A stretch of DNA of 49,673 nucleotides, from IMG/VR virus record IMGVR_UViG_2778261214_000022, positions 1 to 49,673 of that record; one strand, written 5' to 3'. The translations under genes and the position numbers were made by a program. The notes under the pieces were generated by a model. It made no database searches and had not been told where the DNA came from. It saw only the letters and a list, made by a program, of their open reading frames with translations. The DNA comes from a virus. Lineage: Duplodnaviria; Heunggongvirae; Uroviricota; Caudoviricetes. This document shows, piece by piece, positions 1-48,740 of the stretch. The stretch's first letter is position 1; the number at the start of each line of letters is the position of its first letter.

Positions 1-342
1 ATGATGAAAAAAAGTATTCTGACGTTTCTGTTACTCACCAGTTCTGCAGCGGCGCTGGCTGCACCGCAGGTGATTACCGTCAGTCGTTTTGAAGTGGGTA
101 AAGACAAATGGGCGTTTAATCGCGAAGAGGTGATGCTGACTTGCAGACCGGGTAATGCTTTGTATGTCATTAACCCAAGTACCCTCGTGCAGTATCCTTT
201 AAACGATATCGCACAAAAGGAAGTTGCCAGTGGGAAGACTAAAGCCCAACCCATTTCGGTGATTCAGATTGATGATCCTAACAATCCCGGCGAAAAAATG
301 AGTCTGGCACCGTTTATAGAACGAGCTGAAAAACTCTGTTAA
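1..342 (+). CDS. yebY: YebY-like periplasmic protein (DUF2511-type), chromosomal flank
   Basis: 113 aa ORF with N-terminal signal peptide ([22 protein letters not shown]); sits beside pphA/yebW as in E. coli; identity by recall, not searched. Confidence 0.7.
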
Positions 343-377
343 TTACCTAAAATAGCCTTTTGATTTCCAATAAAAAA

Positions 378-414
378 ACCGCCTCAGTTCTTTCACCAGA
401 ACGGGCGGTTTTTA
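378..414 (+). terminator. Intrinsic terminator after yebY
   Basis: GC-rich hairpin accgcc...ggcggt followed by TTTTT. Confidence 0.6.
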
Positions 415-576
415 ACATTTCAGCTGATGACCACCACGCTTTTTATTGACCATTTTGCACGCAAACTGGAAAACCTGGCGTCGTCATCTATTCTTAAAGG
501 GCAAGGCAACTAAGCCTGCATTAATGCCAACTTTTAGCGCACGGCTCTCTCCCAAGAGCCATTTCCCTGGACCGAA

Positions 577-602
577 TACAGGAATCGTATTCGGTCTTTT
601 TT
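577..602. repeat. attL core (direct repeat with 48581-48607)
   Basis: acaggaatcgtAttcggtct+T-run here versus acaggaatcgtGttcggtctc+T-run at the right end; core also forms hairpin ccgaatac/gtattcgg. Confidence 0.7.
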
Positions 603-637
603 TAATTGTATTTAAAATCAATCAGTTGCAAACGTCT

Positions 638-668
638 CCCCGAAATTCCCCGAAATTTACTCGAATTT
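638..668. repeat. Tandem ccccgaaatt repeats, candidate integrase arm-type sites
   Basis: ccccgaaatt at 638-647 and 648-657, degenerate copy actcgaattt 659-668; similar cccgaaaattt near attR. Confidence 0.4.
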
Positions 669-734
669 CTGTATTCCGGTCTTTTTTGGTTATATCACAA
701 CTAAAATGCATTTAACAATCCATTTACGTTAAAA

Positions 735-1811
735 TCAGAGCAGTAAGTACGTTTTTTCTCTCTCATCAAGATACATTTTTGTTGTCTTCTCCGATGTGTG
801 GCCAAGTAGACGCTGAGCAAATTCTTCTCCACATGTTTCTTTGTACAATCGTCCAGCCAGACTTCTGATCTCGTGAAAAGTTGGTGGGTTTTCACTGAAC
901 TGGATACCTGTTAATTTTCTGGCTGCGACAAATTTTTTTGTCAGGCCATCCGGGTGAATGCTGCCGTCAGGGCTATTTTTTCTAATCCCGGCACTGATTA
1001 GATAATCTCCCCGGCTTACCAGGCGGCAGCGTTCAACTACTGTACCAAGCCGTAGACCAGCGACAGGAAGGCTGAGTGACAGGGGGATAGCAATCATCAT
1101 TCCTGTCTTAATTTGCCTGATGTGGAGACGATCATCATAAATATCACTGAACCGCATATTCGTTATGTCTTCGCGACGTTGTCCTGTTACAAGGGCTAAG
1201 TCCATAGCTAATGGGAACCATGTCGGAAGTTGATCTGCTGCCTCCCTGATGCAGTTGTATGTCTTTAGTTTCAGTCGTTCTCTTGTAACTACTATTTTCG
1301 GTGCTCTTGTTGGCGTTACTGGATTTTGAGATATACGTCCTTCAACAATGGCCTCACGAAACATATCAGACAACACAGAACGCATTGATCCTGCCATTGT
1401 GTTTTTCCCTCCTTCAATCCACAAATCAAGAAACTCGGCAATATGGCGAGTGGTTATTTCTGTCAGTAAAATCCCTCCCAATTTTTCTTTTATTGTCTCT
1501 AGTTGATTTACCCGAATTTTATAAGTATTTCTGGACACTTTTCTCCTTATAAGAATCGTTTTGTAACGTTCAATCCAATCTGCCATAGTAAATGAGTCGA
1601 ACCCTTTAAGCTTTTCAATTAAGGCAGCAGGAGAGTAGTTTTTGTATATATAATGATTTGCTTCAATTGCCTGCGCTACTGCATCTCTTCTTGAAATTTT
1701 ACCTAGTGTAAATTCTTCTTTCGTCAGAGGGTTGCGCCAGTAATATGCTTTGTCCCTCCTTCGATATGTTAAGTTTTTAGGCAAATTGGGATCGTATTTT
1801 TTCCGCTGCAT
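735..1811 (-). CDS. int: Tyrosine integrase, lambda Int family
   Basis: 358 aa; lambda-Int-like N-terminus and C-terminal catalytic region (HEIRSLAGRLY ... LLGHTSEKTTKMY). Confidence 0.95.
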   Translation of the reverse strand: MQRKKYDPNLPKNLTYRRRDKAYYWRNPLTKEEFTLGKISRRDAVAQAIEANHYIYKNYSPAALIEKLKGFDSFTMADWIERYKTILIRRKVSRNTYKIRVNQLETIKEKLGGILLTEITTRHIAEFLDLWIEGGKNTMAGSMRSVLSDMFREAIVEGRISQNPVTPTRAPKIVVTRERLKLKTYNCIREAADQLPTWFPLAMDLALVTGQRREDITNMRFSDIYDDRLHIRQIKTGMMIAIPLSLSLPVAGLRLGTVVERCRLVSRGDYLISAGIRKNSPDGSIHPDGLTKKFVAARKLTGIQFSENPPTFHEIRSLAGRLYKETCGEEFAQRLLGHTSEKTTKMYLDEREKTYLLL

Positions 1812-2058
1812 GTTTTAACTTCTCCAGTAACGGACTGTCTCTCCCTTGTCGCCCATTAGGCTGATGGTATGTTATATCGGTATCAACCTTATTTGGGTTG
1901 ATATAGAAAGCCTCCGGAACCACCCTGTAACTCCTCCCGTGTAGTTCAGGTGCAGGATAAATGTTTCCATTCCTTGCCCATCGTCTCAGCGTTGATATTG
2001 ATGGTGGGTTATCCGGATATCTGAGTTTTCCCCACGTTTTGAGTGTCACAAGATTCAT
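1777..2058 (-). CDS. xis: Excisionase
   Basis: 93 aa, overlaps int start by 35 nt; Xis-like motif (ISTLRRWARNGNIYPAPELHGRSYRV); start moved to Met3 for RBS spacing. Confidence 0.8.
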   Translation of the reverse strand: MNLVTLKTWGKLRYPDNPPSISTLRRWARNGNIYPAPELHGRSYRVVPEAFYINPNKVDTDITYHQPNGRQGRDSPLLEKLKHAAEKIRSQFA

Positions 2059-2164
2059 TGCCATACCTCTTACGATATGACCGCCAGTAAATATACAGAA
2101 TACTGGCGGACGTGATTGATTTTTAATAATCAGCTATGAAGTTATAATTTGGATATAATGCAAC

Positions 2165-3430: not shown

Positions 3431-6110
3431 TTGTATATTCCTTAGCCCAGCGGGGCAGTGATAACGTCTTAATAGCTGGCCATTCATCGGTATTGAGGCA
3501 GTCAGCCAGGGTTCGCAGATTGCGGTGATATTCCTGCTGGCCTGCCAGTTTTGCTTCTTCGCCCATCATGAAAATTTCAACCGGATAACGTCCGCATTCA
3601 ACTGTTGTGCTGACGGCCAGAAAAACGAAAGTTGGTTGCACACCAAACTGTGCCTCATAACCGTCACTGTAGAATGCATCCTGAACGTGATAGCGGTATT
3701 CGTAATATGCGGTTTTGAATCGCTGAATATCCGCCGTAGTTTTCACGTCCACGATCCAGTGAAATTCAGGGATAATTTTGTCCGGACGGCACCGACACAA
3801 AATTCCCGTTTCCGGATCTTCCCAGTAAATTGATGATTCAGCGTGTCCGGCGCTTTCAACAAGCCATTGCCCCAGCGGCAAAGCCATAACGCTCTGATAC
3901 ATGAGTTCAATTTTCCGGCCTTCTTCCGCAGTGATAACTGTTTTTCCTGTGCTTGCGCATTCCATCAGAAACGTTTTCTCTTCTTCTTTTCCGGCGTTTG
4001 TACGGCGGTTAAATTCAGGTGCTACGATAAAGCGGTTACTGAATTCTTCCGGTTCAAGTACACGGCAGTGGAAAGCGGTTCCTAAATCGAGCGTTTTTGT
4101 CTTTGTAGTGTCCACGGGGGCATTTTTACGCCACAAATACAGTGCCGGAGTATCAGCAATGTCATCGAGCTGAGACTTACTGACACCGGGACCCGCGTGG
4201 TAATTCTCATTCGAAATTCCGTAATAAATACCTAGCTCTATGTCTTCTACGATTACGGGATCTGCGACTTCGCCAGTTTCATCACTGCAATCGCGATGCG
4301 GATCGCTGCCAGCATTCTCATTGTGCGGATGTTCAGCGCCTTCCATTTCCTCCGGATCTTTTTCCTTAGCTTCAACCTGATTCTCTTCACCGAATGTTTC
4401 CTGGTATGTTGCGTCGCCCATCACCGCACCACAGTCAGGGCAGTTATCCCCGCCAGTCTGACCGCAGGCATTGCAGACTTTTTCCACTTCCTGTTGCGCC
4501 ACTGGTTCAGGCTGTTTCGTTTCTGGCTCGTTTTGTAACGCATTTTGGCTGTTTTGTTCCGCTTTCTGGTCGTTTTGTTCCGATTCGGGCTGGTTCTGGT
4601 TCACAGAATCGCGGGTTTCAATCCCCTTAACCCATTTCGGATCATTCGGGTCGCTAATTCCGTCAACGAACTCACCGCGTGATGCAGCAAGAAACTTATC
4701 GGCGTCAGGCTGGTTGATATTGGCAGCCTGCATAATTTTGTTTACTTCGTCAGCGGTAACTTTTACCTGATTAACCGGATCTATCTGTGCCTGAGTATCC
4801 AGCGATTGCGTGTCCTGGCGATGTTCAGTTGTATCCGGCTCCATTGCTTCAGTCGTTGCCTGTTCATCTGCCAGTGCGCCAGACGGTTGCGATTTTTCTT
4901 CATCGTTTTTTTCTTCTTCTGTTTCTTGCCCGGCAGCCAGCTCGCGGTTTATTTCTTCCAGGATATCTTTTTCCGGTGTATGTCGTGCAGCAGCGAGGGT
5001 TTCCTTGCTGGGGTTCTCGTGATCAGTTTCCGTTAAGTGGGCGTTGATATACACCTGAAGGCGTACCCTGTAGAGATAAAGTTCAGGGTGGGCGCTCCGG
5101 ATAAGTGCAAAAATAGCGGCACGGGAATAATCCAGGATACCCGGGATTGCGCGAAGTGCTGCGGACCATTCTTTGAACGGACTTTCTTTCTTCCGGACGA
5201 CTTTTTTTGCGCGACGATAAACGCTGCCCGGGATTTCATAAATATTAAAATCCATCGGAAGGGTGGCCGCTGCAATCTCCACATCCAGCGTATCGAAGGT
5301 GTGTACTAAATTCGGATTGCGATCGGTTTTGTTCCCGCCGCCAGCATTAGCACCGGAAGCCGTGCGGGTGATACGCGAAACACGATTTCCTTTCATCCAC
5401 TCTTTTGTCAGCAGACCGCGATCGGTGTAGTCGGCGTCCAGGTATGCTTCGATAAAAGAGGTTATCAGTCCCAGGTCCGAATTTACGGGGGCGGGGAAAA
5501 CTTTGTCAGTGTCTCGCACCAGTTTGTGGAGATCGCGAATTTCCAGTGGTTCGAGTTGCGCTGCTTTATTTGAGATGGCCAGCGCGGCAACGGCGGGAAG
5601 TTTTTCATCCTGTGCGTTATGTAATGCGCGCAGTTCGTCCCGCGAAACGTGTGTGATCGGTTTTTCGCTGCCGTGCTGTGCCAGCCATCGAACAGGCAGA
5701 ATCTGACCTGAAACCGGCAGGAGCATGTTCTCCTCAATCTCAGCCATGTCTTCGCCGTTGACGTTGGTATTGTCAGTGCTGGCTGGTTTATCCTGAACAG
5801 AGGGTGAGGGCGCGATAAATACCATTGTGATGCCATCTTCCCCGCCTTTTTCGTAACGGTTGCAGAATTCCGTATCAAATACGCCTTCTGGCGGGAGGTC
5901 ATTAACAACGGGCAAATTGACGCGAACAGGTTTTTTGAAGTCATCTTCATCGTATCCAGCATCGTCAATCGCAACAGCACCACGGGAGATGGCAATGGAT
6001 AATTTTTTCGTTTCAGCCCAGTAAAAACCGCCTTTAATACCGAGACGTTTTCTTACTTTGTCATTTTTTGCTTCGTAATACAGTGGGTAAACTTGTTTAT
6101 CGGTGCTCAT
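3423..6110 (-). CDS. recE: Exodeoxyribonuclease VIII RecE
   Basis: 895 aa; C-terminal nuclease domain matches remembered Rac RecE ([48 protein letters not shown]). Confidence 0.95.
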
Positions 6111-6211
6111 TGTTTTTTAACCTCAACTCAGATTAAAATTCGTTTTGTTCAGTGAATGATCTTGCTGGATACACACTGTTCGTAGCCTGCGACATACGCA
6201 GGCTATTTCTT

Positions 6212-6487
6212 TCAGATTTCACCTTTTAATTTCATTGCAATCAGAGTTGCCAGAAATTCGGCTTTTTTTTCTGCAGGCAGATTCTTTCCGATATGCACCA
6301 GGCACATTTTTTTGACACCTTCATCAAGTGTTTTTACGTTGCCTGATGGACCATCGATATCAACCACAGTGAATGGGGTTTCTTTATTTTCTGTTTTAAT
6401 CACGTAGCCAATACGCTTTCCTTCCAGATTAACCTCGTGAACAATGTCATCGGTAGTTACAACAGTGGCTTCATAACTGGTAATCAT
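6212..6487 (-). CDS. racC: RacC-like protein
   Basis: 91 aa (MITSYEATVVTTDDIVHEVNLEGKRIGYV...), position just downstream of recE as in Rac. Confidence 0.8.
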   Translation of the reverse strand: MITSYEATVVTTDDIVHEVNLEGKRIGYVIKTENKETPFTVVDIDGPSGNVKTLDEGVKKMCLVHIGKNLPAEKKAEFLATLIAMKLKGEI

Positions 6488-6560
6488 TTTTTCTCCTTAA
6501 TTAAGGTTGAGCGAATACCTGCCATTTTTGGCATAAATTCAGTTTCGAATAGTCAATTAA

Positions 6561-6731
6561 TTAAAGTTCGTGTGCCATCTGGTCTTTTTCGGCACAGATT
6601 TCACTACAATATTTTTTCATTTCCGTCGTTGGTATAACTCCACGCATGAAATGAAGTGGTCTTGTAATGATTTTGCTTTCTTCAATTTCTTTATTGCAAA
6701 GGTGATAAGCACATTTTATTTTCTTAGTCAT
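6561..6731 (-). CDS. ydaE: YdaE-like small Cys-containing protein
   Basis: 56 aa ORF found by hand translation ([56 protein letters not shown]); below the 60 aa ORF-track cutoff; start overlaps kilR stop (TAATG). Confidence 0.65.
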   Translation of the reverse strand: MTKKIKCAYHLCNKEIEESKIITRPLHFMRGVIPTTEMKKYCSEICAEKDQMAHEL

Positions 6732-6952
6732 TACCATGACTCCGCCTTTACAGGTAAACCATCACGACCGAGGAAGACTTTAATCATGCAGTCAGAAATG
6801 CATGTTTTTGTAGTCAGGCTACGAATATAAAGTTTTCGCTTTTTAATATTGTTTGCCGAGGCGATATATGTCCGACCTTCATGAAGAACATAATCGCCAG
6901 GGGTCACACACTGACGTGGTATTTCATCAGTTCCGAAGTGATGAGCAATCAT
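6731..6952 (-). CDS. kilR: KilR-like cell-division inhibitor
   Basis: 73 aa from Met5 ([32 protein letters not shown]...), GGAG RBS 6 nt upstream; matches remembered Rac KilR. Confidence 0.8.
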
Positions 6953-7130
6953 AATTATCTCCATTTTTACAAATGAATTTTGTCGATGCGGTGCCTGGTG
7001 CCTCCAGGTGACGTTAACCAGTTAACAATTAACGCCGGATATTTCACCCATAACTCTGCTACGAAGGACAATAGCTTTTTAACTGTTCCGCGTGCGCTTA
7101 GCCGCATTCACCGCATCACAAAATTCACTT

Positions 7131-7178
7131 TAAAAAGGGCGGACATCAGTCGAACTTCAAGAAAAAACTGATGCCGCC
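7131..7178 (-). terminator. Intrinsic terminator-like hairpin inside the leftward early operon
   Basis: ~12 bp stem gggcggacatcagt/actgatgccgcc; the plus-strand A-run 7131-7136 gives a T-run after the hairpin on the minus strand. Confidence 0.45.
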
Positions 7179-7376
7179 AAGACTACACACAGCAGTGTTG
7201 TTATTCACAACCGGAGGCGCACTCCCACCATTTAAATTTAACAGACAAGACCGACTCTTTATGGATATCGGAAATGCGCCTTCGTGTTGTGCCCGGTTTT
7301 ATTTCACCACCTCCGGGCTTTGGTGGCCTCGGCTATACCCCTACAGCGAGAATATTGAATTAATCCAAATAATGGA

Positions 7377-7529
7377 TTAGCAAGTATTTCTGGCAAGCCA
7401 GCGACGTGCGCCCGTTTCAGTTTTGAATGTCTTGCTTTTGGTATAAGTCATGGCGGTGAACGTTCCATCCTGGTTGGGGAACACGCCACACACCAGGGAT
7501 TCGTTGTTGCCGAGGTCGATTTTTTGCAT
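7377..7529 (-). CDS. ydaF: YdaF-like small protein
   Basis: 50 aa ORF by hand translation (MQKIDLGNNESLVCGVFPNQDGTFTAMTYTKSKTFKTETGARRWLARNTC); name from Rac synteny and size. Confidence 0.55.
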   Translation of the reverse strand: MQKIDLGNNESLVCGVFPNQDGTFTAMTYTKSKTFKTETGARRWLARNTC

Positions 7530-7539
7530 TTTTCGCACC

Positions 7540-7674
7540 TCACATTTTGTTGTTGCGGATAGAGGCTTCTGCCTGCCAGAGATCCCAGTCGTTGCTGCGT
7601 AGAGCCTGTACAGCCTGGCTGTAAGTGATACCGCAACAATCCATCAAATACTGAACTACTTCGTAATGCACCAT
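7540..7674 (-). CDS. ydaG: YdaG-like small protein
   Basis: 44 aa ORF by hand translation (MVHYEVVQYLMDCCGITYSQAVQALRSNDWDLWQAEASIRNNKM); first gene of leftward operon. Confidence 0.55.
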   Translation of the reverse strand: MVHYEVVQYLMDCCGITYSQAVQALRSNDWDLWQAEASIRNNKM

Positions 7675-7741
7675 TTTATCTCTCCCTTTAACGCCGGGTT
7701 GCGGAACTAAAACCTACAGCGCCGTGCTGTTCTTGATAGAA

Positions 7742-7770
7742 ATATTAGTAACGCGGATATTTTAAGTCAA
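7742..7770 (-). promoter_or_regulatory. PL-like sigma70 promoter for leftward early operon
   Basis: Minus strand TTGACT - 17 nt - TAATAT (plus coords 7765-7770 and 7742-7747), ~65 nt upstream of ydaG-like start. Confidence 0.5.
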
Positions 7771-7867
7771 CAGTATGGCGTATAATATTTTTGATTTGGT
7801 AACTATGTAAATGTTTTTTCAAGGGAAAAATATTAGTTATACAGCTGATTTGCAGAAGTTATGGCAC

Positions 7868-7898
7868 AAAAAAAACCGACTAAGACGTCGGTTTTTTT
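7868..7898. terminator. Bidirectional intrinsic terminator downstream of repressor gene
   Basis: A-run, hairpin ccgac-taagac-gtcgg, T-run. Confidence 0.6.
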
Positions 7899-7924
7899 GT
7901 TGTGGATGGGGTAGTGAGCGGTGG

Positions 7925-8386
7925 CTACTGGTTACGTTTCTTTAGTGCCAGCATGTTCTCGAAGGCTTCCTCGTAGAGCTTGTTTAGTCCACGTAGCTGG
8001 TTAAGGAGTTTGGCTTTTTCTGACGCAGGTAGAATCTCGAAGAGGTTAAGCAACTCTGCCTGTTCTTCATTGACCAGCCTCCATCCTTTGCCTGAAAAGC
8101 TATCATCATAAGTATCTGATGATCTTACATAATTCATTAAGTCTTTAAGGTCTTCTCGAATGTCCTCTGGTTTTACCTTTAACAGAGCCGCAAATTTTAG
8201 CGCAGCATCGGTATTTACCGGTATCTTGCCGTTCAGATACTGGCTAACGGTGCCTTGAGATTCGAATCCCAACAACTCAGCCGCCAGCTCTTGAGTCAGC
8301 TTCAGCTCTTTTTTTCTTGCATTCCATGCGGCTTTTAAATTCTTGCTCGCTTCTGGAGTTGCAATCACTTCGCGTGTTTTTTTCAT
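7925..8386 (-). CDS. Prophage repressor, XRE-family HTH, DicA/RacR-like, no S24 peptidase domain
   Basis: 153 aa; HTH (LTQELAAELLGFESQGTVSQYLNGK) and C-terminal region resembling DicA; divergent from cro/ydaS-like gene. Confidence 0.85.
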   Translation of the reverse strand: MKKTREVIATPEASKNLKAAWNARKKELKLTQELAAELLGFESQGTVSQYLNGKIPVNTDAALKFAALLKVKPEDIREDLKDLMNYVRSSDTYDDSFSGKGWRLVNEEQAELLNLFEILPASEKAKLLNQLRGLNKLYEEAFENMLALKKRNQ

Positions 8387-8434
8387 ACATAGAGTTTATT
8401 TGTTTTACCAATATTATCAAAGATAGTTTGACTA

Positions 8435-8463
8435 TTGATCTTTAAAATTAGTGGGGCTAATAT
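8435..8463 (+). promoter_or_regulatory. PR-like promoter for rightward ydaS-like operon
   Basis: TTGATC - 17 nt - TAATAT in the 100 bp divergent intergenic region. Confidence 0.4.
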
Positions 8464-8487
8464 TTGCTCGAGGCATAACGTAGAAGG

Positions 8488-8769
8488 TTGGCTATGAACT
8501 TAAGAGACTATTTAAAAGAGAAACATATCACCCAGCTACAGTTTGGGAAGCTAACGGGTTTATCTCAGGTGCACGTAAGTCGAGTGCTGGGGGGCTATGA
8601 AAGATTCAGCCCTGAAAAAGCATTACGTGTTGCTGAAGTAACGAATTTCGAGGTTACACCTCATGAACTCCGGCCTGATATCTACCCGAATCCAACCGAC
8701 GGTTTACCTGTTGGATGTAAGGCTAACACACAAAATACACAGGAGTTGATTCATGAAAATCAGGCATGA
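8488..8769 (+). CDS. ydaS: YdaS-like Cro/CI-family HTH protein
   Basis: 93 aa, HTH (LTGLSQVHVSRVLGG), LRPDIYP motif; first gene rightward of repressor as in Rac racR-ydaS-ydaT. Confidence 0.75.
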   Translation: MAMNLRDYLKEKHITQLQFGKLTGLSQVHVSRVLGGYERFSPEKALRVAEVTNFEVTPHELRPDIYPNPTDGLPVGCKANTQNTQELIHENQA

Positions 8770-9175
8770 GCACATCGAATCAGTGCTGTTAGCCCTGGCA
8801 GCCGAAAAAGGGCAGGCGTGGGTCGCTAACGCAATTACTGAAGAATATCTGCGCCAGGGGGGAGGTGAATTGTCTCTGACACCAGGCAAGGACTGGAACA
8901 ATCAGCAGAACATCTATCGCCGTTGGTTAAAAGGTGAAACGGAAGCGCAAAGGGAAAAAATTCAGAAGCTGATCCCAGCAATTCTGGCAATCCTTCCGCG
9001 GGAGCTGCGTCACCGACTCTGCATCTTCGATACCCTGGAACGCCGTGCATTACTGGCGGCGCAGGAAGCGTTGAGTACGGCAATTGATGCGCATGATGAC
9101 GCAGTCCAGGCCGTTTACCGTAAAGCGCATTTCGGCGGTGGTGGAGCGTCCGACGATTCTGTTGTAGTGCATTGA
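8753..9175 (+). CDS. ydaT: YdaT-like protein
   Basis: 140 aa (MKIRHEHIESVLLALAAEKGQAWVANAITEEYLRQGGGE...); matches remembered Rac YdaT; 17 nt overlap with ydaS-like gene. Confidence 0.8.
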   Translation: MKIRHEHIESVLLALAAEKGQAWVANAITEEYLRQGGGELSLTPGKDWNNQQNIYRRWLKGETEAQREKIQKLIPAILAILPRELRHRLCIFDTLERRALLAAQEALSTAIDAHDDAVQAVYRKAHFGGGGASDDSVVVH

Positions 9176-17700: not shown

Positions 17701-17776
<76 letters not shown>

Positions 17777-17779
17777 TAT

Positions 17780-17851
<72 letters not shown>

Positions 17852-40214: not shown

Positions 40215-40562
40215 ATGAGAACATGGGGCCGCGTCAACGACGCGAACGGCAACAAAAAATGGGTTGCAGTAGAATCTGACACCAACGGTGATTTCTCCTA
40301 CGGCTGGCTGACGACGCTCATTCAGACGTTAAAGCTGGGGTTGGGGGAGTCGCCGTTTTACGCGAATTACGGCATTCCAGCGCAGCAGTGCATCGTGCAG
40401 CAGATTTACCCGGATTACTATGTGAACATGGTTCAGCAACAGTTTGCCGGGTATTTTGCATCATTGGCAATTTCAAAGGTAGATGGGGCAGAGAACCCCA
40501 CCTATAACATCGATGTTGTGTTTTTTAATGGGACCAGTTATCGGACGCAGGTTCCGGTTTGA
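40215..40562 (+). CDS. Hypothetical protein
   Basis: 115 aa from Met17; possibly a baseplate component or cargo. Confidence 0.55.
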   Translation: MRTWGRVNDANGNKKWVAVESDTNGDFSYGWLTTLIQTLKLGLGESPFYANYGIPAQQCIVQQIYPDYYVNMVQQQFAGYFASLAISKVDGAENPTYNIDVVFFNGTSYRTQVPV

Positions 40563-41101
40563 GGCAAGTTTTCGGGCATCAGTTGGGCCAGTGGCGTATT
40601 AAGAAGTTCATCGCGTGGCATGACAATCCATCCACTTTTGCGTAGTAAGTGAATTGCCCATTCTGTGGTGATAACTGAGCCTGATTTGTGGTGCTCAATG
40701 TGGGTAACCGATCCGTTTCTGACGCGCATGATGATGTCAACATTCAGAGGGGATTGTGTGCTGGTAGTTTCTTCGCGCAGCTTCTTCTCGCACTCGATGA
40801 AGTATCGGCGGATCTGGCGGCCTTTTTCGTTGCGTTCGACCATTGCCAGCTCTTTGGCGGTATCTAGGGTGAGGTGGTAGTCCTTGCGGTTGTGGCCTCC
40901 CCGGCCTTTTGCTTCCCGAATTTGGGAAGCAATCACATAGTCCTGATTTTCTACGAATTCATACTCGCTAAGTCGCTCGGTGATCCAAGTAGCAAAGCGC
41001 TTACCTATTTCGAGAAAGGCGTGCAGATCGCGAGCATTACAGAGAAGGATGGTTTCGTTTGAGACTGTTCCGTTGAAAACGGGGATCAGTTGGGTTGTCA
41101 T
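40538..41101 (-). CDS. AntA-type antirepressor-like protein
   Basis: 187 aa from internal Met with GAGGT RBS; N-terminal antirepressor-like region (ARDLHAFLEIGKRFATWITERLSEYEFVENQDYV ... LTLDTAKELAMVERNEKGRQIRRYF). Confidence 0.7.
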   Translation of the reverse strand: MTTQLIPVFNGTVSNETILLCNARDLHAFLEIGKRFATWITERLSEYEFVENQDYVIASQIREAKGRGGHNRKDYHLTLDTAKELAMVERNEKGRQIRRYFIECEKKLREETTSTQSPLNVDIIMRVRNGSVTHIEHHKSGSVITTEWAIHLLRKSGWIVMPRDELLNTPLAQLMPENLPQTGTCVR

Positions 41102-41434
41102 GATGACCTCTGTTTGTTTTCTTCGAATTACCACTATCTGAGTGGTGCCAGGAGGTTCGAAACGGCACAAACAAAGCCGCGGACTTATTCCCCTTTCGGG
41201 TGTTGTATTCGTCGCCCTCCCGACATTGATCGGGGATGTGACCGCACATGGTGCCATCACTAAATAGTAGGCATAAAAAATCCAACACTGACGGGGTTGG
41301 TTGTGACCGTGTTTGTTGAGGTTTCGACGCCTCATGCACATAATCATACTCAATAGCTCATGGATGTAAAGTCTGATTTGAATAGAGAAAAACCGTTGAT
41401 AAAATCCGCATGAACATTTGATAATGAGGTGATT

Positions 41435-41824
41435 ATGTCGGTAAGTATAAAAATTGCACTCCCTTTATTTACAATTTTATTCGTCTCTTGGTGTGCGATT
41501 GGTACGCCAATTGAAAAATCAGAAAGGCTCATTACTAATCAAGATGTTTCTTTAAGCGAAGAACAACGGCAATTGCTTCAGCATATGAGAAATGAAATGA
41601 TTGTAACAGATCAACTATCAGAATCGTGTCGCTTGGTGAGTGAAGGAAAGGAAAAAGCGGCTTTAACAAAACTCCAAAGTATAGAATGGAGCAATACGGG
41701 GTTAAAAATTTCCAAAAATGGCGTTCATAATGACGGTATTATTGAATACTTTAAGAAAAGACTGCAATTAGGTAGCGAAGGATGTGATGTTTTTACCCAA
41801 GATCTTATTCGTGACGTATATTAA
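41435..41824 (+). CDS. Secreted hypothetical protein
   Basis: 129 aa; hydrophobic signal-like N-terminus; GAGGTGA RBS; AT-rich. Confidence 0.6.
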   Translation: MSVSIKIALPLFTILFVSWCAIGTPIEKSERLITNQDVSLSEEQRQLLQHMRNEMIVTDQLSESCRLVSEGKEKAALTKLQSIEWSNTGLKISKNGVHNDGIIEYFKKRLQLGSEGCDVFTQDLIRDVY

Positions 41825-41828
41825 AAAC

Positions 41829-41857
41829 AGCCCGCGTTCAGCGGGTTGTTTTTTTTT
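41829..41857. terminator. Bidirectional intrinsic terminator between convergent genes
   Basis: cccgc-gttca-gcggg followed by T-run, A-run upstream. Confidence 0.7.
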
Positions 41858-41861
41858 GAGG

Positions 41862-42338
41862 TTACTTGTAATTACCTATTGTGCCACTGATTTCGCATGA
41901 ATACTTACTGAATTCAGTAGGTACAAATTCAACGGAAATAATATCCCCTACTTTTAATGGTCTTGAATCGGACATTCTTATTTCATACTTTAATTCTGGA
42001 TTTTTGAAATCAACCGCAGATAATCTTTGGTTTGATAGTGAATTTACTTTAACTTTTGTTTTATACCAATGCTTGTCTAGATTTGAATCAAAAAATATCT
42101 TTGCGGAATCATCAGTGCTAAACTGATCGCAGATTTCGGAAACTATTTTGTCGCTTTTAACGACCGCTGTCTTATAAGATGATGATTCATTTTTAATATC
42201 TTCATCGGAAGGTGATGAAAAATGGCCAATTAAATAAAGTATAAAGACAATTCCAATTAATGTTCCACAGCCACCATTATTCCTTCCGCTTGATACAGAA
42301 ATACCAGAAAGACCTTTTTTGTTGAAATAGAACCGCAT
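41862..42338 (-). CDS. Membrane-anchored hypothetical protein
   Basis: 158 aa; AAGGAG RBS 5 nt before ATG; N-terminal TM segment; AT-rich codon usage. Confidence 0.65.
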   Translation of the reverse strand: MRFYFNKKGLSGISVSSGRNNGGCGTLIGIVFILYLIGHFSSPSDEDIKNESSSYKTAVVKSDKIVSEICDQFSTDDSAKIFFDSNLDKHWYKTKVKVNSLSNQRLSAVDFKNPELKYEIRMSDSRPLKVGDIISVEFVPTEFSKYSCEISGTIGNYK

Positions 42339-48607: not shown

Positions 48608-48740
48608 TCTGTTAAAAGCCAGAAGCATTTCCTTCGCTGACTTTATAGTCAACCATAACACACACTCTACTGTCTGAGTCCAGCGTTTTTTAACATTCTT
48701 GTTAAGATTATGTGATCTTTAGCGCGGGAGGAAAATATTG

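What the first reader, a model, noticed from the sequence alone, without database searches (positions are those of the whole stretch)
7925..9175. Immunity region of the Rac racR-ydaS-ydaT type with a peptidase-less repressor
The repressor is an XRE-HTH protein with a DicA-like C-terminus and no S24 autoprotease domain, diverging from ydaS-like and ydaT-like genes. In E. coli K-12 Rac the corresponding repressor is reported to hold toxic ydaS/ydaT in check. An intact version in a complete prophage implies induction by something other than RecA-mediated self-cleavage, which would fit the AntA-like antirepressor at 40538-41101.
Basis: partly seen in the sequence, partly recalled or inferred. Interest (0 to 1): 0.45.

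Follow-up and report, generated by a model that had tools for sequence, protein, structure and literature searches.

The report
Rac-family prophage immunity switch, DicA-type repressor
This is an ordinary lambda-style lysis/lysogeny switch of a Rac-family E. coli prophage. Its repressor lacks the self-cleaving domain, so DNA damage probably cannot switch it on directly; the more unusual feature is a small RNA that appears to gate the phage's antirepressor gene.

Summary
The three genes are real. There is a 153-aa HTH repressor (7925-8386, -), a 91-aa YdaS-family Cro analogue (8494-8769, +) and a YdaT/CII analogue (8753-9175, +).

The region is not the K-12 racR type. The repressor has no detectable similarity to RacR. 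It combines a lambda-CI-like N-domain with a DicA-type helical C-domain (hhalign 98.3% to DicA, Sakai Sp10 and pPE4 repressors). A 1-kb cassette (about 7711-8746) replaces the K-12 one, while the flanks and YdaT are about 92-93% identical to Rac, so this is a heteroimmune Rac relative.

The only two 1-mismatch copies of AATATT-N9-AATATT in 49.7 kb sit on the predicted PR and PL -10 boxes, and the motif recurs in homologous loci (one named Hafnia alvei). The repressor mRNA looks leaderless. A YdaT-box spans the ydaT start.

There is no S24 domain and no LexA box. The same allele occurs in 180 of 5426 complete E. coli genomes and is annotated dicA/dicC in phage Rac-SA53. Peptidase-less repressors with YdaS/YdaT as Cro/CII are already published, so the finding is ordinary.

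The AntA gene is real, but any link to this repressor is untested. Its leader carries an Rfam sRNA-Xcc1 element whose loop covaries with the ant ribosome-binding site across 58 phage loci, which resembles P1 c4-ant control.

The parts
7925..8386 (-). CI-analogue immunity repressor, 153 aa. It has a lambda-CI-like HTH N-domain (about residues 10-90) and a DicA-type helical C-domain (about residues 105-153). There is no S24 peptidase.
   Evidence: ORF; Pfam HTH_3 only. PDB profile hit to the lambda CI N-terminal domain at E 2.6e-11; Foldseek 1lmb. hhalign 98.3% to DicA/Sp10/pPE4 repressors. AF2 model. No similarity to RacR.
8393..8420 (-). Predicted PRM-like promoter: TTGATA (8420-8415), 16-nt spacer, TAAACT (8398-8393). 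It places the transcription start at or next to the repressor ATG (8386), giving a leaderless mRNA with no SD.
   Evidence: Promoter scan. A -10-like TAnAAT hexamer lies at the same 6-nt distance from the ATG in the homologous loci L006-L011 (L006 is Hafnia alvei). Leaderless paaR2 and cI are the precedent (PMC8630535). This is inferred, not shown.
8435..8463 (+). Predicted PR: TTGATC (8435-8440), 17-nt spacer, TAATAT (8458-8463). It drives cro-ydaT-replication genes; SD AGAAGG lies at 8482-8487 ahead of the ATG at 8494.
   Evidence: Read from the sequence. It matches 8 of 12 positions, so the scan tool did not call it. K-12 PydaST uses the same -10, TAATAT (PMC11879457). The layout mirrors PL.
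8444..8464 (.). Operator OR1, AAAATTAGTGGGGCTAATATT (AATATT-N9-AATATT with 1 mismatch). It covers the PR spacer and -10.
   Evidence: One of only two 1-mismatch matches in the window. The same arms and spacing occur in homologous loci.
8395..8415 (.). Weaker operator-like site OR2, TTTATTTGTTTTACCAATATT (2 mismatches). It covers the PRM -10 and spacer.
   Evidence: The ACTAAT(A/T)TT core is conserved in homologous loci.
8494..8769 (+). Cro analogue, 91 aa, YdaS-family HTH. It is 32% identical to K-12 YdaS and has no similarity to DicC.
   Evidence: RefSeq annotates it as a YdaS family helix-turn-helix protein.
8746..8763 (.). YdaT-box TTGATTCATGAAAATCAG, spanning the ydaT start codon. It is the presumed activator site for a leftward PRE-like promoter. 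It also marks the right-hand junction of the swapped immunity cassette.
   Evidence: 0.29 matches expected by chance. The same box sits at the same place in K-12 Rac, Sp10, Rac-SA53, pPE4 and the homologous loci L006/L008. Published YdaT-box TTGATT-N6-AATCAA (PMC9986795, PMC11879457). Similarity to K-12 DNA resumes at 8747.
8753..9175 (+). YdaT, the CII analogue, 140 aa; 93% identical to K-12 YdaT.
   Evidence: PDB hits 3c4r and 8bt1 (YdaT).
7869..7898 (.). Perfect 12-bp inverted repeat (AAAAAAACCGAC / GTCGGTTTTTTT) with U-tracts on both strands. It is the likely bidirectional terminator ending the repressor transcript.
   Evidence: the repeat finder I7; sequence. The terminator scan did not list it.
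7741..7789 (.). OL region. OL1 is AATATTAGTAACGCGGATATT (7741-7761, 1 mismatch) and OL2 is 7769-7789 (2 mismatches). They overlap the predicted PL on the minus strand: TTGACT (7770-7765), 17-nt spacer, TAATAT (7747-7742). PL reads into ydaG/ydaF/kilR/recET.
   Evidence: Conserved in homologous loci.
40538..41101 (-). AntA-domain antirepressor candidate, 187 aa, in a moron-like insert between baseplate genes.
   Evidence: It is 83% identical to the annotated Ant of phage Rac-SA53.
41139..41224 (-). sRNA-Xcc1-family structured RNA in the ant leader. It has a closing stem of 9 bp and two hairpins. The hairpin-2 loop (CUUUGUUUGU) and the junction (UUUCGAA) are complementary to the ant leader.
   Evidence: Rfam RF02221, 70.9 bits against a gathering score of 53. 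Covariation tests.
41108..41127 (-). Predicted target sites of the sRNA in the ant leader: UUCGAA (41127-41122) and ACAAACAGAG (41117-41108). The second overlaps the SD AGAGG of ant.
   Evidence: Read from the sequence. Duplex energy -19.1 kcal/mol, reached by 10 of 500 shuffles. Compensatory change in Rac-SA53 and across 58-64 loci.
2116..2133 (.). Second YdaT-box-like site, TTGATTTTTAATAATCAG, upstream of the leftward xis/int genes (1777-2064, 735-1811). This would correspond to the CII-activated PI of lambda.
   Evidence: It lies exactly where similarity to Rac begins. The function is inferred only.

Best explanation
The locus is the lysis/lysogeny switch of a complete Rac-family lambdoid prophage. 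It is heteroimmune to K-12 Rac.

Repressor and operators. The 153-aa repressor is a CI analogue. Its lambda-CI-like HTH domain binds operators built from two AATATT hexamers 15 bp apart. The DicA-type helical C-domain most likely mediates oligomerisation and cooperative binding (inferred). The operators overlap the -10 boxes of PR (8444-8464) and PL (7741-7761), so the repressor shuts off both early operons. A weaker site over its own leaderless PRM-type promoter would give autoregulation.

Cro and CII analogues. When the repressor is lost, PR expresses the 91-aa YdaS-family Cro analogue, which is expected to compete for the same intergenic sites. PR also expresses YdaT, a CII analogue that binds the TTGATT-N6-AATCAG box across its own start codon. 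That binding would fire a leftward establishment promoter. A second box upstream of xis/int may control those genes.

Induction. The repressor has no S24 domain and no cleavage site, and no LexA box guards any candidate inducer. Induction should therefore be independent of RecA-stimulated self-cleavage, arising either spontaneously (bistable switching) or through a protein antirepressor. The only candidate encoded in the prophage is the AntA protein. It appears to be kept translationally silent by a c4-like small RNA (Rfam sRNA-Xcc1) made from its own leader.

Shown by sequence and comparison: gene identities, domain architecture, cassette swap, operator and box positions, sRNA-leader covariation. 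Inferred: DNA-binding specificity, leaderless transcript, role of the C-domain, the Ant target and the induction trigger.
For: - Gene content and synteny.
- YdaT is 93% identical to the K-12 protein, and there is a 32% YdaS relative.
- The repressor N-domain resembles lambda CI. It is 43-64% identical to the N-domains of CI-type repressors that carry PF00717.
- The whole protein is homologous to DicA, Sp10 and pPE4 repressors.
- The C-domain is predicted helical.
- Mosaic boundaries lie at about 7711 and 8746.
- The only two 1-mismatch AATATT-N9-AATATT sites in 49.7 kb sit on the PR and PL -10 boxes. There were 9 matches at up to 2 mismatches against 3.6 expected, and none of 100 shuffles reached 9.
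- The operator motif recurs at the corresponding OR and OL positions of homologous loci, and a -10-like hexamer keeps its distance to the ATG, where the repressors are 58-71% identical.
- The YdaT-box is conserved and matches published footprints (PMC11879457).
- Published functional precedents: PaaR2/YdaS/YdaT in CP-933P (PMC8630535), and Sakai Sp10, which has a peptidase-less DicA-type repressor and was not induced by mitomycin C yet transferred to K-12 (PMC2669165).
- No LexA box.
- sRNA-Xcc1 in the ant leader, with two covarying complementarities to the leader.
- Genes downstream of sRNA-Xcc1 belong to antirepressor-type families.
Against: - Nothing here is experimental for this allele.
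- The operator motif is AT-rich and overlaps -10 boxes, so some of its conservation may reflect promoters rather than repressor sites.
- PR matches the sigma-70 consensus at only 8 of 12 positions.
- The AlphaFold C-domain has low confidence (pLDDT about 50), and no solved structure matches it.
- No evidence ties Ant to this repressor. The modules reassort, and the co-occurrence seen (at least 14 of 42 ant carriers) can be explained by shared descent.
- Sakai Sp10 carries a different allele (about 23% identity), so its mitomycin C behaviour is only an analogy.
Confidence: 0.8

Rival explanations
1. Ant-driven induction. The AntA protein binds and inactivates this particular repressor, perhaps through the DicA-type C-domain. 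This would be the normal route by which the prophage is induced, once the sRNA gate on ant translation is overcome.
For: - The repressor lacks S24.
- Ant is the only antirepressor-type gene found in the prophage.
- At least 14 of the 42 E. coli genomes with a full-length homologue of this ant carry this repressor allele 31-37 kb away, although the allele occurs in only 3.3% of genomes.
- A near-identical ant in phage pPE4 accompanies another DicA-type repressor that has a different HTH domain but the same C-terminal motif.
Against: - No binding data exist.
- The enrichment is expected from common descent of whole prophages.
- At least 138 of the 180 carriers of the repressor lack this ant.
- No LexA box or other recognisable signal input lies upstream of ant.
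- In P22 and P1, Ant serves anti-immunity on infection rather than prophage induction (own knowledge; PMC8198154).
- AntA-domain proteins are often of unproven function.
Confidence: 0.3
2. No dedicated inducer. The switch flips stochastically (bistability, as in CP-933P) or through host-factor effects on repressor level, such as proteolysis or H-NS/temperature effects as for DicA and Rac. Ant acts on other phages' repressors or only during superinfection.
For: - Bistable PaaR2/YdaS switching was shown for a peptidase-less analogue (PMC8630535).
- Sp10 was not induced by mitomycin C yet transferred to K-12 (PMC2669165).
- Rac excision is reported to be induced during biofilm formation (PMC4632033 abstract).
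- Ant and the repressor assort independently in many genomes.
Against: - The prophage keeps an intact, tightly gated ant module within its tail region. This conservation suggests a function for the phage itself.
- No data exist for this allele.
Confidence: 0.35
3. Toxin-repressor (TA-like) module. YdaS and YdaT are toxins whose only relevant biology is host killing, and the repressor exists to silence them. This is what the Pfam names and the 2017 RacR papers imply.
For: - The Pfam families are named YdaS_toxin and YdaT_toxin.
- racR is essential in K-12, and ydaS/ydaT expression is lethal (PMC5700377, PMC5700373).
Against: - The genes sit in the cI-cro-cII slots of a complete phage between PL and the replication genes.
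- YdaT is a structurally and biochemically characterised CII-like DNA-binding activator (PMC9986795, PMC11879457).
- YdaS acts as Cro (PMC8630535).
- Jobling's critique (PMC5917428).
- Operators are shared between PR and PL, which a TA module would not need.
Confidence: 0.07
4. SOS induction by cryptic RecA-stimulated self-cleavage of the repressor.
For: The N-domain is related to those of S24-bearing CI repressors.
Against: - No S24 hit.
- The C-terminal region is too short at about 70 aa, and is predicted all-helical.
- No Ala-Gly or Cys-Gly site in the sequence.
- It is homologous end to end to DicA-type repressors.
- Sakai prophages whose repressors lack the peptidase motif (Sp6, Sp9, Sp10) did not respond to mitomycin C.
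Confidence: 0.03

Closest known systems
K-12 Rac racR-ydaS-ydaT immunity region
   Same: It occupies the same position, between ydaG/ydaF/kilR/recET and the replication genes. It has the same divergent layout. YdaT is 93% identical, with the same YdaT-box over its start codon. The PR -10 (TAATAT) is the same. Flanking DNA is about 92% identical.
   Different: The repressor is unrelated to RacR at the sequence level. The Cro analogue is only 32% identical to YdaS. The 1-kb PL/OL-repressor-OR-cro cassette shares no DNA similarity, so immunity specificity must differ. sieB is absent. The prophage is complete and uses a different integrase and attachment site.
DicA (Qin) and the DicA-type repressors of Sakai Sp10 (ECs_1941) and phage pPE4
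   Same: All are short (129-153 aa) HTH repressors with the C-terminal motif LLxLFxxLPxSE(K/Q) followed by a helix. hhalign gives 98.3% probability end to end. None has a peptidase. All occupy the cI slot of lambdoid prophages. The Sakai study reports Sp6, Sp9 and Sp10 as not inducible by mitomycin C.
   Different: Overall identity is only 23-28%. The score is below the NCBIfam DicA cutoff (35 against 101 bits). The HTH domain is closer to lambda CI and to S24-bearing CI repressors. The partner Cro is YdaS-type, not DicC.
CP-933P PaaR2-YdaS-YdaT (E. coli O157:H7)
   Same: It has a peptidase-less CI analogue translated from a leaderless mRNA. YdaS acts as Cro and YdaT as CII. The switch is bistable and does not react to mitomycin C (PMC8630535).
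   Different: No paaA2-parE2 toxin-antitoxin genes lie downstream of the repressor here. The CP-933P proteins are only 26-31% identical to the K-12 YdaS/YdaT per the paper.
Phage lambda cI-cro-cII with OR/OL, PRM/PR/PL/PRE
   Same: The gene order and divergent promoters are the same. Operators are shared between the left and right promoters. The repressor mRNA is leaderless (inferred here). An activator box sits at the cII-proximal end. The repressor N-domain fold is the same.
   Different: There is no S24 C-domain, so no RecA-mediated induction. CII is replaced by the non-homologous YdaT fold. Operator number and spacing differ: two clear and two weak sites rather than 3 + 3.
P1/P7 immI (c4 antisense RNA-icd-ant)
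   Same: A small structured RNA is encoded upstream of the antirepressor gene on the same strand. Two short segments of it are complementary to the downstream leader, one covering the ribosome-binding site. The specificity segments vary between phages (mechanism from PMC8198154 and PMC7313666).
   Different: The RNA matches Rfam sRNA-Xcc1 (RF02221), not C4 (RF01695); there was no C4 hit even at E up to 10. No icd-like ORF lies between the RNA and ant. No operator for the main repressor is found at the ant promoter. Processing and action in trans are untested.
LexA-controlled antirepressors of Gifsy-type prophages (recalled from Lemire et al. 2011, not checked here)
   Same: A non-cleavable repressor is paired with a prophage-encoded antirepressor.
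   Different: No LexA box lies upstream of ant or elsewhere in the window. The gate here is an RNA.

Membership tests
Rac (K-12) racR-ydaS-ydaT immunity type | Repressor orthologous to RacR | tested here: not met
   BLASTP against K-12 RacR gives E = 26, i.e. no alignment. There is no DNA similarity across 7711-8746.
Rac (K-12) racR-ydaS-ydaT immunity type | YdaS-family Cro analogue transcribed divergently from the repressor | tested here: met
   Pfam YdaS_toxin scores 30.9 bits against a cutoff of 30. Identity to K-12 YdaS is 32%. The match is marginal and the allele distant.
Rac (K-12) racR-ydaS-ydaT immunity type | YdaT orthologue with a YdaT-box at its 5' end | tested here: met
   93% identity. 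Box TTGATTCATGAAAATCAG at 8746-8763.
DicA family repressors (NCBIfam NF007257) | Score at or above the curated cutoff (101 bits) | tested here: not met
   35.1 bits, although the alignment spans model positions 7-132 of 135.
DicA-type short prophage repressors (HTH plus helical C-domain with the LPxSE motif) | End-to-end homology including the C-terminal motif | tested here: met
   hhalign gives 98.3% probability, E 1.6e-14, over 131 aligned columns. Pairwise hits to DicA, Sp10 and pPE4 are confined to or include the C-domain.
LexA/CI-type self-cleaving repressors (Peptidase S24) | S24 domain with a Ser/Lys dyad and an Ala-Gly cleavage site | tested here: not met
   No PF00717 hit. The C-domain is short and predicted helical. 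There is no AG dipeptide. Relatives of the N-domain that do carry PF00717 are about 100 aa longer.
Lambda-type immunity switch | The same operator motif at both early promoters, overlapping their -10/-35 elements | tested here: met
   AATATT-N9-AATATT occurs at 8444-8464 (PR) and 7741-7761 (PL). These are the only 1-mismatch sites in the window. The motif recurs at the corresponding positions of homologous loci. Binding itself was not tested.
Lambda-type immunity switch | Repressor binds the operators and represses PR/PL; Cro competes | not testable with these tools
   Needs EMSA, footprinting or reporter assays.
Antirepressor-mediated, SOS-linked induction (Gifsy/N15/186 type) | LexA box controlling the antirepressor gene | tested here: not met
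   There is no CTGT-N8-ACAG site at up to 1 mismatch in 41090-41900 or 7600-8800, and no match of 15 or more of 20 positions to the LexA consensus anywhere in the window.
Antirepressor-mediated induction (any type) | Physical inactivation of this repressor by Ant | not testable with these tools
   Only co-occurrence is available, and it is compatible with shared descent.
Rfam sRNA-Xcc1 (RF02221) | Covariance-model score above the gathering threshold | tested here: met
   70.9 bits against 53, full-length match to model positions 1-87, at 41139-41224 (-).
P1/P7 C4 antisense RNA (Rfam RF01695) | Match to the C4 covariance model | tested here: not met
   No C4 hit at E up to 10 in 40900-41600.
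c4-like mode of action (antisense RNA gating ant translation) | RNA segments complementary to the downstream RBS region, kept complementary by compensatory change | tested here: met
   Loop versus pre-SD: a Watson-Crick run of 7 or more in 45% of 58 own pairs against 2.3% of cross pairs. Junction versus leader: 6 or more in 81% of 64 own pairs against 13% of cross pairs. Regulation itself was not tested.

The most novel reading that the evidence does not exclude
The prophage may run a two-tier, SOS-independent immunity resembling P1. The first tier would be a non-cleavable DicA-type CI analogue. The second would be an antirepressor that can inactivate it and is itself held off by a c4-like antisense RNA.

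That RNA is the Rfam family sRNA-Xcc1. The papers found here, up to 2025, describe it as a Xanthomonas/Xylella virulence-associated trans-acting sRNA. Under this reading it would be a widespread phage 'antirepressor gate'. Its hairpin loop and junction encode immunity specificity by pairing with the ribosome-binding region of the adjacent ant, KilA-N, Bro-N, ORF6N, P22_AR or Rha gene.

Rough sub-probabilities: the sRNA gates translation of the downstream gene, about 0.75; Ant targets this particular repressor, about 0.35; the link between sRNA-Xcc1 and antirepressor control is unpublished, about 0.6.
Probability: 0.3. Interest if true: 0.6.

Novelty: new member of a known kind. Interest (0 to 1): 0.25.

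Why it matters
As stated, the finding adds little. It is one more immunity allele of the mosaic Rac/lambdoid family. The allele is already present in 180 complete E. coli genomes and is annotated in phage Rac-SA53. Its logic, a peptidase-less repressor with YdaS as Cro and YdaT as CII, has been worked out in sister systems.

It is still useful for three reasons:
1. It shows that the annotation labels 'toxin YdaT' and 'YdaS toxin' mislead.
2. It gives concrete operator, promoter and YdaT-box coordinates that can be tested directly.
3. It shows that cI-type N-domains and DicA-type C-domains have been shuffled.

The by-product could matter more. If sRNA-Xcc1 elements are c4-like gates on antirepressor genes, an Rfam family would get a different function from the one described in the papers found here. 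That would also give a handle on how SOS-independent prophages decide to induce, or to overcome resident immunity.

Tried and rejected
- LexA-box searches (exact, 1-mismatch and 20-mer consensus) found nothing near ant or the immunity region. I dropped SOS coupling through LexA.
- I looked for the repressor's operator motif at the ant promoter and found none.
- The PDB sequence search with the C-domain alone gave no hits. Foldseek of the AF2 model matched only the HTH domain. The C-domain fold therefore stays unassigned.
- phmmer of the 59-aa C-domain against 1.8 billion representatives returned only 5 hits. This was too insensitive to map the spread of the domain.
- Jobling 2016, which describes Rac-SA53, is not held in the library. 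What that paper says about dicA/dicC could not be checked, so only the GenBank annotation was used.
- I searched for att direct repeats of 12 nt or more between the first 1 kb and the last 9.7 kb of the window and found none.
- The promoter scanner did not call PR (8 of 12 matches) and the terminator scanner did not call the 7869-7898 hairpin. Both were read from the sequence and from the parallel with PL.
- My first covariation control, using whole hairpin regions with G-U pairs allowed, was uninformative because shared TTCGAA and SD/closing-stem sequences pair in all combinations. I replaced it with loop-only and junction-only Watson-Crick tests.
- I assumed at first that Sakai Sp10 carried the same repressor as O157:H7 strain 2571. 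It does not: it has a 139-aa allele with about 23% identity. Sp10's mitomycin C phenotype is therefore an analogy only.
- I considered DicC as the Cro partner and found no similarity.
Full report
OBSERVATION. The coordinates hold three ORFs:
- 7925-8386 (-), 153 aa.
- 8494-8769 (+), 91 aa. The ATG at 8494 is preceded by AGAAGG; the ORF list extends it to a TTG at 8488.
- 8753-9175 (+), 140 aa.

Pfam finds HTH_3 and no Peptidase_S24 on the first, YdaS_toxin (30.9 bits, cutoff 30) plus HTH_3 on the second, and YdaT_toxin on the third. PHROGs calls them transcriptional repressor/regulator, repressor (phrog_35) and CII-like activator (phrog_163). NCBIfam aligns the first protein to DicA over nearly the whole model, but at 35 bits against a cutoff of 101. 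The AntA-domain ORF at 40538-41101 (-) is also real.

CONTEXT. The window is an E. coli prophage.
- The immunity region is 100% identical to strains C5 and F2_407_2_2, and 96.6% identical to phage Rac-SA53, where the genes are annotated dicA, dicC and ydaT.
- The left arm carries ralR/RalA, recT, recE, racC, ydaE, kilR, ydaF and ydaG (Rfam RalA; annotation).
- The right arm carries DnaT-like and P-like replication genes, then two tRNAs, lysis genes, terminase, portal, tail and tail-fibre genes.
- The element lies between a DUF2511 gene with ryeA/sdsR (1-607) and a metallophosphatase gene (48738-49397). It has a lambda-type integrase at 735-1811, unlike the ttcA-integrating intR of Rac. Similarity to Rac-type prophages starts at 2116.
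- It appears complete.

NOT THE racR TYPE. K-12 YdaT is 93% identical. K-12 YdaS is only 32% identical over 50 aa, and RacR gives no alignment (E = 26). A blastn comparison with the K-12 Rac segment shows about 92% identity for 6103-7351, 7398-7710 and 8747-9173, and nothing in between. A cassette of about 1 kb has therefore been exchanged. It contains PL/OL, a terminator, the repressor, OR and cro. Its right junction falls exactly at the YdaT-box. This is the classic lambdoid way of making a heteroimmune phage.

The allele is found in 180 of 5426 complete E. coli genomes, against 1086 for racR. These include O157:H7 strains, where the identical protein WP_000753628.1 sits in the prophage at ttcA.

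THE REPRESSOR.
- Its N-terminal 80 residues resemble the lambda CI N-domain. phmmer gives E 2.6e-4 and an alignment profile gives E 2.6e-11. Foldseek of the AF2 model hits 1lmb with TM 0.77-0.80 normalised to the target.
- In the large protein collection the same N-domain occurs at 43-64% identity fused to PF00717 (S24) domains in proteins of 234-259 aa. The segment ESQGTVSQYLNGKIP is invariant in the alignment with these proteins.
- Here the C-terminal part is instead a region of about 70 residues, predicted all-helical at low confidence. It carries the motif ELLNLFEILPASEK.
- That motif is shared with K-12 DicA (38% over 42 aa), with the Sakai Sp10 repressor ECs_1941 and with the repressor of phage pPE4.
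- A profile-profile comparison of the two groups gives 98.3% probability, end to end.
- Full-length homologues (58-92% identity) with the same neighbours occur in genomes and contigs named Enterobacter ludwigii, Hafnia alvei and Serratia.
- There is no Ala-Gly site and no room for a peptidase.

REGULATORY DNA.

Repressor promoter. On the minus strand, TTGATA-16-TAAACT (8420-8393) ends 6 nt before the repressor ATG, and no SD is present. A -10-like TAnAAT hexamer lies at the same distance from the ATG in homologous loci such as the Hafnia alvei locus L006. This suggests a leaderless mRNA, as shown for lambda cI and PaaR2 (PMC8630535).

PR and PL. PR is read as TTGATC-17-TAATAT (8435-8463). PL is TTGACT-17-TAATAT on the minus strand (7770-7742). 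Aligned on their -10 boxes, the two promoters share AATATT-N9-AATATT. A window-wide search finds 9 sites at up to 2 mismatches, against 3.6 expected, and none of 100 shuffles reached 9. The only two 1-mismatch sites are 8444-8464 (PR) and 7741-7761 (PL). Two further 2-mismatch sites lie at 8395-8415 (over PRM) and 7769-7789. The same arms and spacing occur at the corresponding OR position in three distinct homologous loci, and at the OL position in the two Hafnia-type loci. These are the likely operators. Part of the signal may come from the overlapping -10 boxes.

Terminator. A perfect 12-bp hairpin with U-tracts on both sides (7869-7898) should terminate the repressor transcript.

YdaT-box. 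TTGATTCATGAAAATCAG (8746-8763) spans the ydaT start. It matches the published YdaT-box, TTGATT-N6-AATCAA, which in K-12 activates a leftward PRE-like promoter (PMC11879457; PMC9986795). The box is present at the same place in K-12 Rac, Sp10, Rac-SA53, pPE4 and the homologous loci L006 and L008. The only other site in the window at up to 1 mismatch lies at 2116-2133, upstream of xis/int. This recalls the CII-dependent PI of lambda.

MECHANISM. The simplest reading is a lambda-like switch. The repressor holds PR and PL off and probably autoregulates. The YdaS-family protein acts as Cro. YdaT acts as CII for establishment.

This has been demonstrated for sister systems:
- K-12 Rac (PMC11879457).
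- CP-933P, where PaaR2 is peptidase-less and leaderless, the switch is bistable and it does not react to mitomycin C (PMC8630535).

Jobling argued the same for Rac in general (PMC5917428). Asadulghani et al. noted in 2009 that the repressors of Sakai Sp4, Sp6, Sp9 and Sp10 lack the peptidase domain. They reported that Sp6, Sp9 and Sp10 were not induced by mitomycin C, although Sp10 could still be transferred to K-12 (PMC2669165). I checked Sp10. Its repressor is a different allele (139 aa, about 23% identity) of the same DicA-type architecture. Induction without RecA-mediated cleavage is therefore expected, and it is not a new idea.

THE ANTIREPRESSOR.

For a link to this repressor:
- Ant is the only antirepressor-type gene in the prophage.
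- At least 14 of the 42 genomes with a full-length homologue of ant plus its leader carry this repressor allele 31-37 kb away.
- pPE4 combines a 92.6% identical ant (DNA) with another DicA-type repressor.

Against a link:
- This enrichment is what shared ancestry of whole prophages would give.
- At least 138 of the 180 repressor carriers lack this ant.
- No LexA box exists.
- The operator motif is not found at the ant promoter.

I put about 0.3 on Ant being the inducer of this repressor.

A BY-PRODUCT: sRNA-Xcc1 IN THE ant LEADER. The ant leader contains a full-length match to Rfam sRNA-Xcc1 (41139-41224, 70.9 bits against 53). Its hairpin-2 loop, CUUUGUUUGU, can pair with ACAAACAGAG, which overlaps the ant SD. 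Its junction, UUUCGAA, can pair with UUCGAA further upstream (duplex -19.1 kcal/mol, reached by 10 of 500 shuffles). In Rac-SA53 both the loop and the leader differ, yet they remain complementary.

A scan of viral contigs for the conserved core returned at least 119 loci. Among the unique loci:
- Loop versus pre-SD (58 pairs): a Watson-Crick run of 7 or more occurs in 45% of own pairs against 2.3% of cross pairs.
- Junction versus leader (64 sequences): a run of 6 or more occurs in 81% of own pairs against 13% of cross pairs.

The downstream proteins belong to P22_AR, KilA-N, Bro-N, ORF6N, AntA and Rha families. All of these are antirepressor-type domains.

This is the architecture of P1/P7 immI, where c4 antisense RNA blocks ant expression through complementary sites in the leader (PMC8198154; PMC7313666). 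However, the RNA does not match the Rfam C4 model. In EDL933 an sRNA-Xcc1 copy is listed among ncRNAs with low ribosomal coverage and tens of thousands of reads (PMC5331693). The papers I could find still treat sRNA-Xcc1 as a virulence-linked trans-acting sRNA. I may have missed work that makes the c4 connection.

VERDICT. As an immunity region it is a new member of a well-known kind, and interest is low. The sRNA-gated antirepressor is the part worth following up.

Noticed in passing
window 41139-41224 (-), with targets at 41108-41127; loci L013-L133: An Rfam sRNA-Xcc1 element sits in the leader of the ant gene. In 58-64 unique phage loci its hairpin-2 loop and 3' junction are complementary to the RBS region of their own downstream gene, with compensatory changes. 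Those downstream genes are antirepressor-type (P22_AR, KilA-N, Bro-N, ORF6N, AntA, Rha). This looks like a P1 c4-ant type translational gate. The papers found here describe the family as a Xanthomonas virulence-linked sRNA.
   Followed up: partly
window 2116-2133: A second YdaT-box-like site (TTGATTTTTAATAATCAG) lies just upstream of the leftward xis/int genes. It sits exactly at the junction where similarity to Rac-type prophages begins. It may be the counterpart of the CII-activated PI promoter of lambda.
   Followed up: no
window 1-2115 and 48738-49673: The prophage is not at the Rac site (ttcA). It lies between a DUF2511 gene plus the ryeA/sdsR sRNA pair (463-607) and a metallophosphatase gene (pphA-like). 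It has a lambda-type integrase (735-1811) in place of intR. The integration module was swapped independently of the immunity cassette. No att repeat of 12 nt or more was found.
   Followed up: partly
proteins P0024-P0030 versus window 7925-8386: The repressor's HTH domain, including the segment ESQGTVSQYLNGKIP that is invariant in the alignment, also occurs fused to Peptidase_S24 in 234-259-aa CI-type repressors from other sources. The DNA-binding and C-terminal modules of prophage repressors have evidently been shuffled between cleavable and non-cleavable forms.
   Followed up: partly
window 41253-41240 (-), just upstream of the sRNA: The palindrome ATGTG-N4-CACAT lies immediately 5' of the sRNA-Xcc1 element. 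It is kept in Rac-SA53 although the central 4 nt differ. It could be an operator for an unidentified regulator of the sRNA-ant transcript.
   Followed up: no
window 41429-42338: Next to ant there are two ORFs with no family match. One is 131 aa with a signal-peptide-like N-terminus (41429-41824, +). The other is 158 aa with a hydrophobic N-terminal segment (41862-42338, -). They converge on a bidirectional terminator-like hairpin near 41825-41850. The block looks like a moron inserted between baseplate genes.
   Followed up: no
window 7351-7398 versus K-12 Rac (L001 2672-3160): The superinfection-exclusion gene sieB, which lies between kilR and ydaF in K-12 Rac, has no similar DNA in the window. 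The kilS sRNA region was not examined.
   Followed up: no
window 17701-17851: Two phage-encoded tRNA genes lie ahead of the lysis genes. They are annotated tRNA-Thr and tRNA-Gly in the near-identical strain C5 prophage.
   Followed up: no
phage record PP818812.1 (L012, L014): The record 'Actinobacillus phage vB_Apl-pPE4' is 99% identical to this E. coli prophage over ydaT and the neighbouring DNA. It carries Rac-type recE/kil genes. The host assignment in that record looks doubtful.
   Followed up: no
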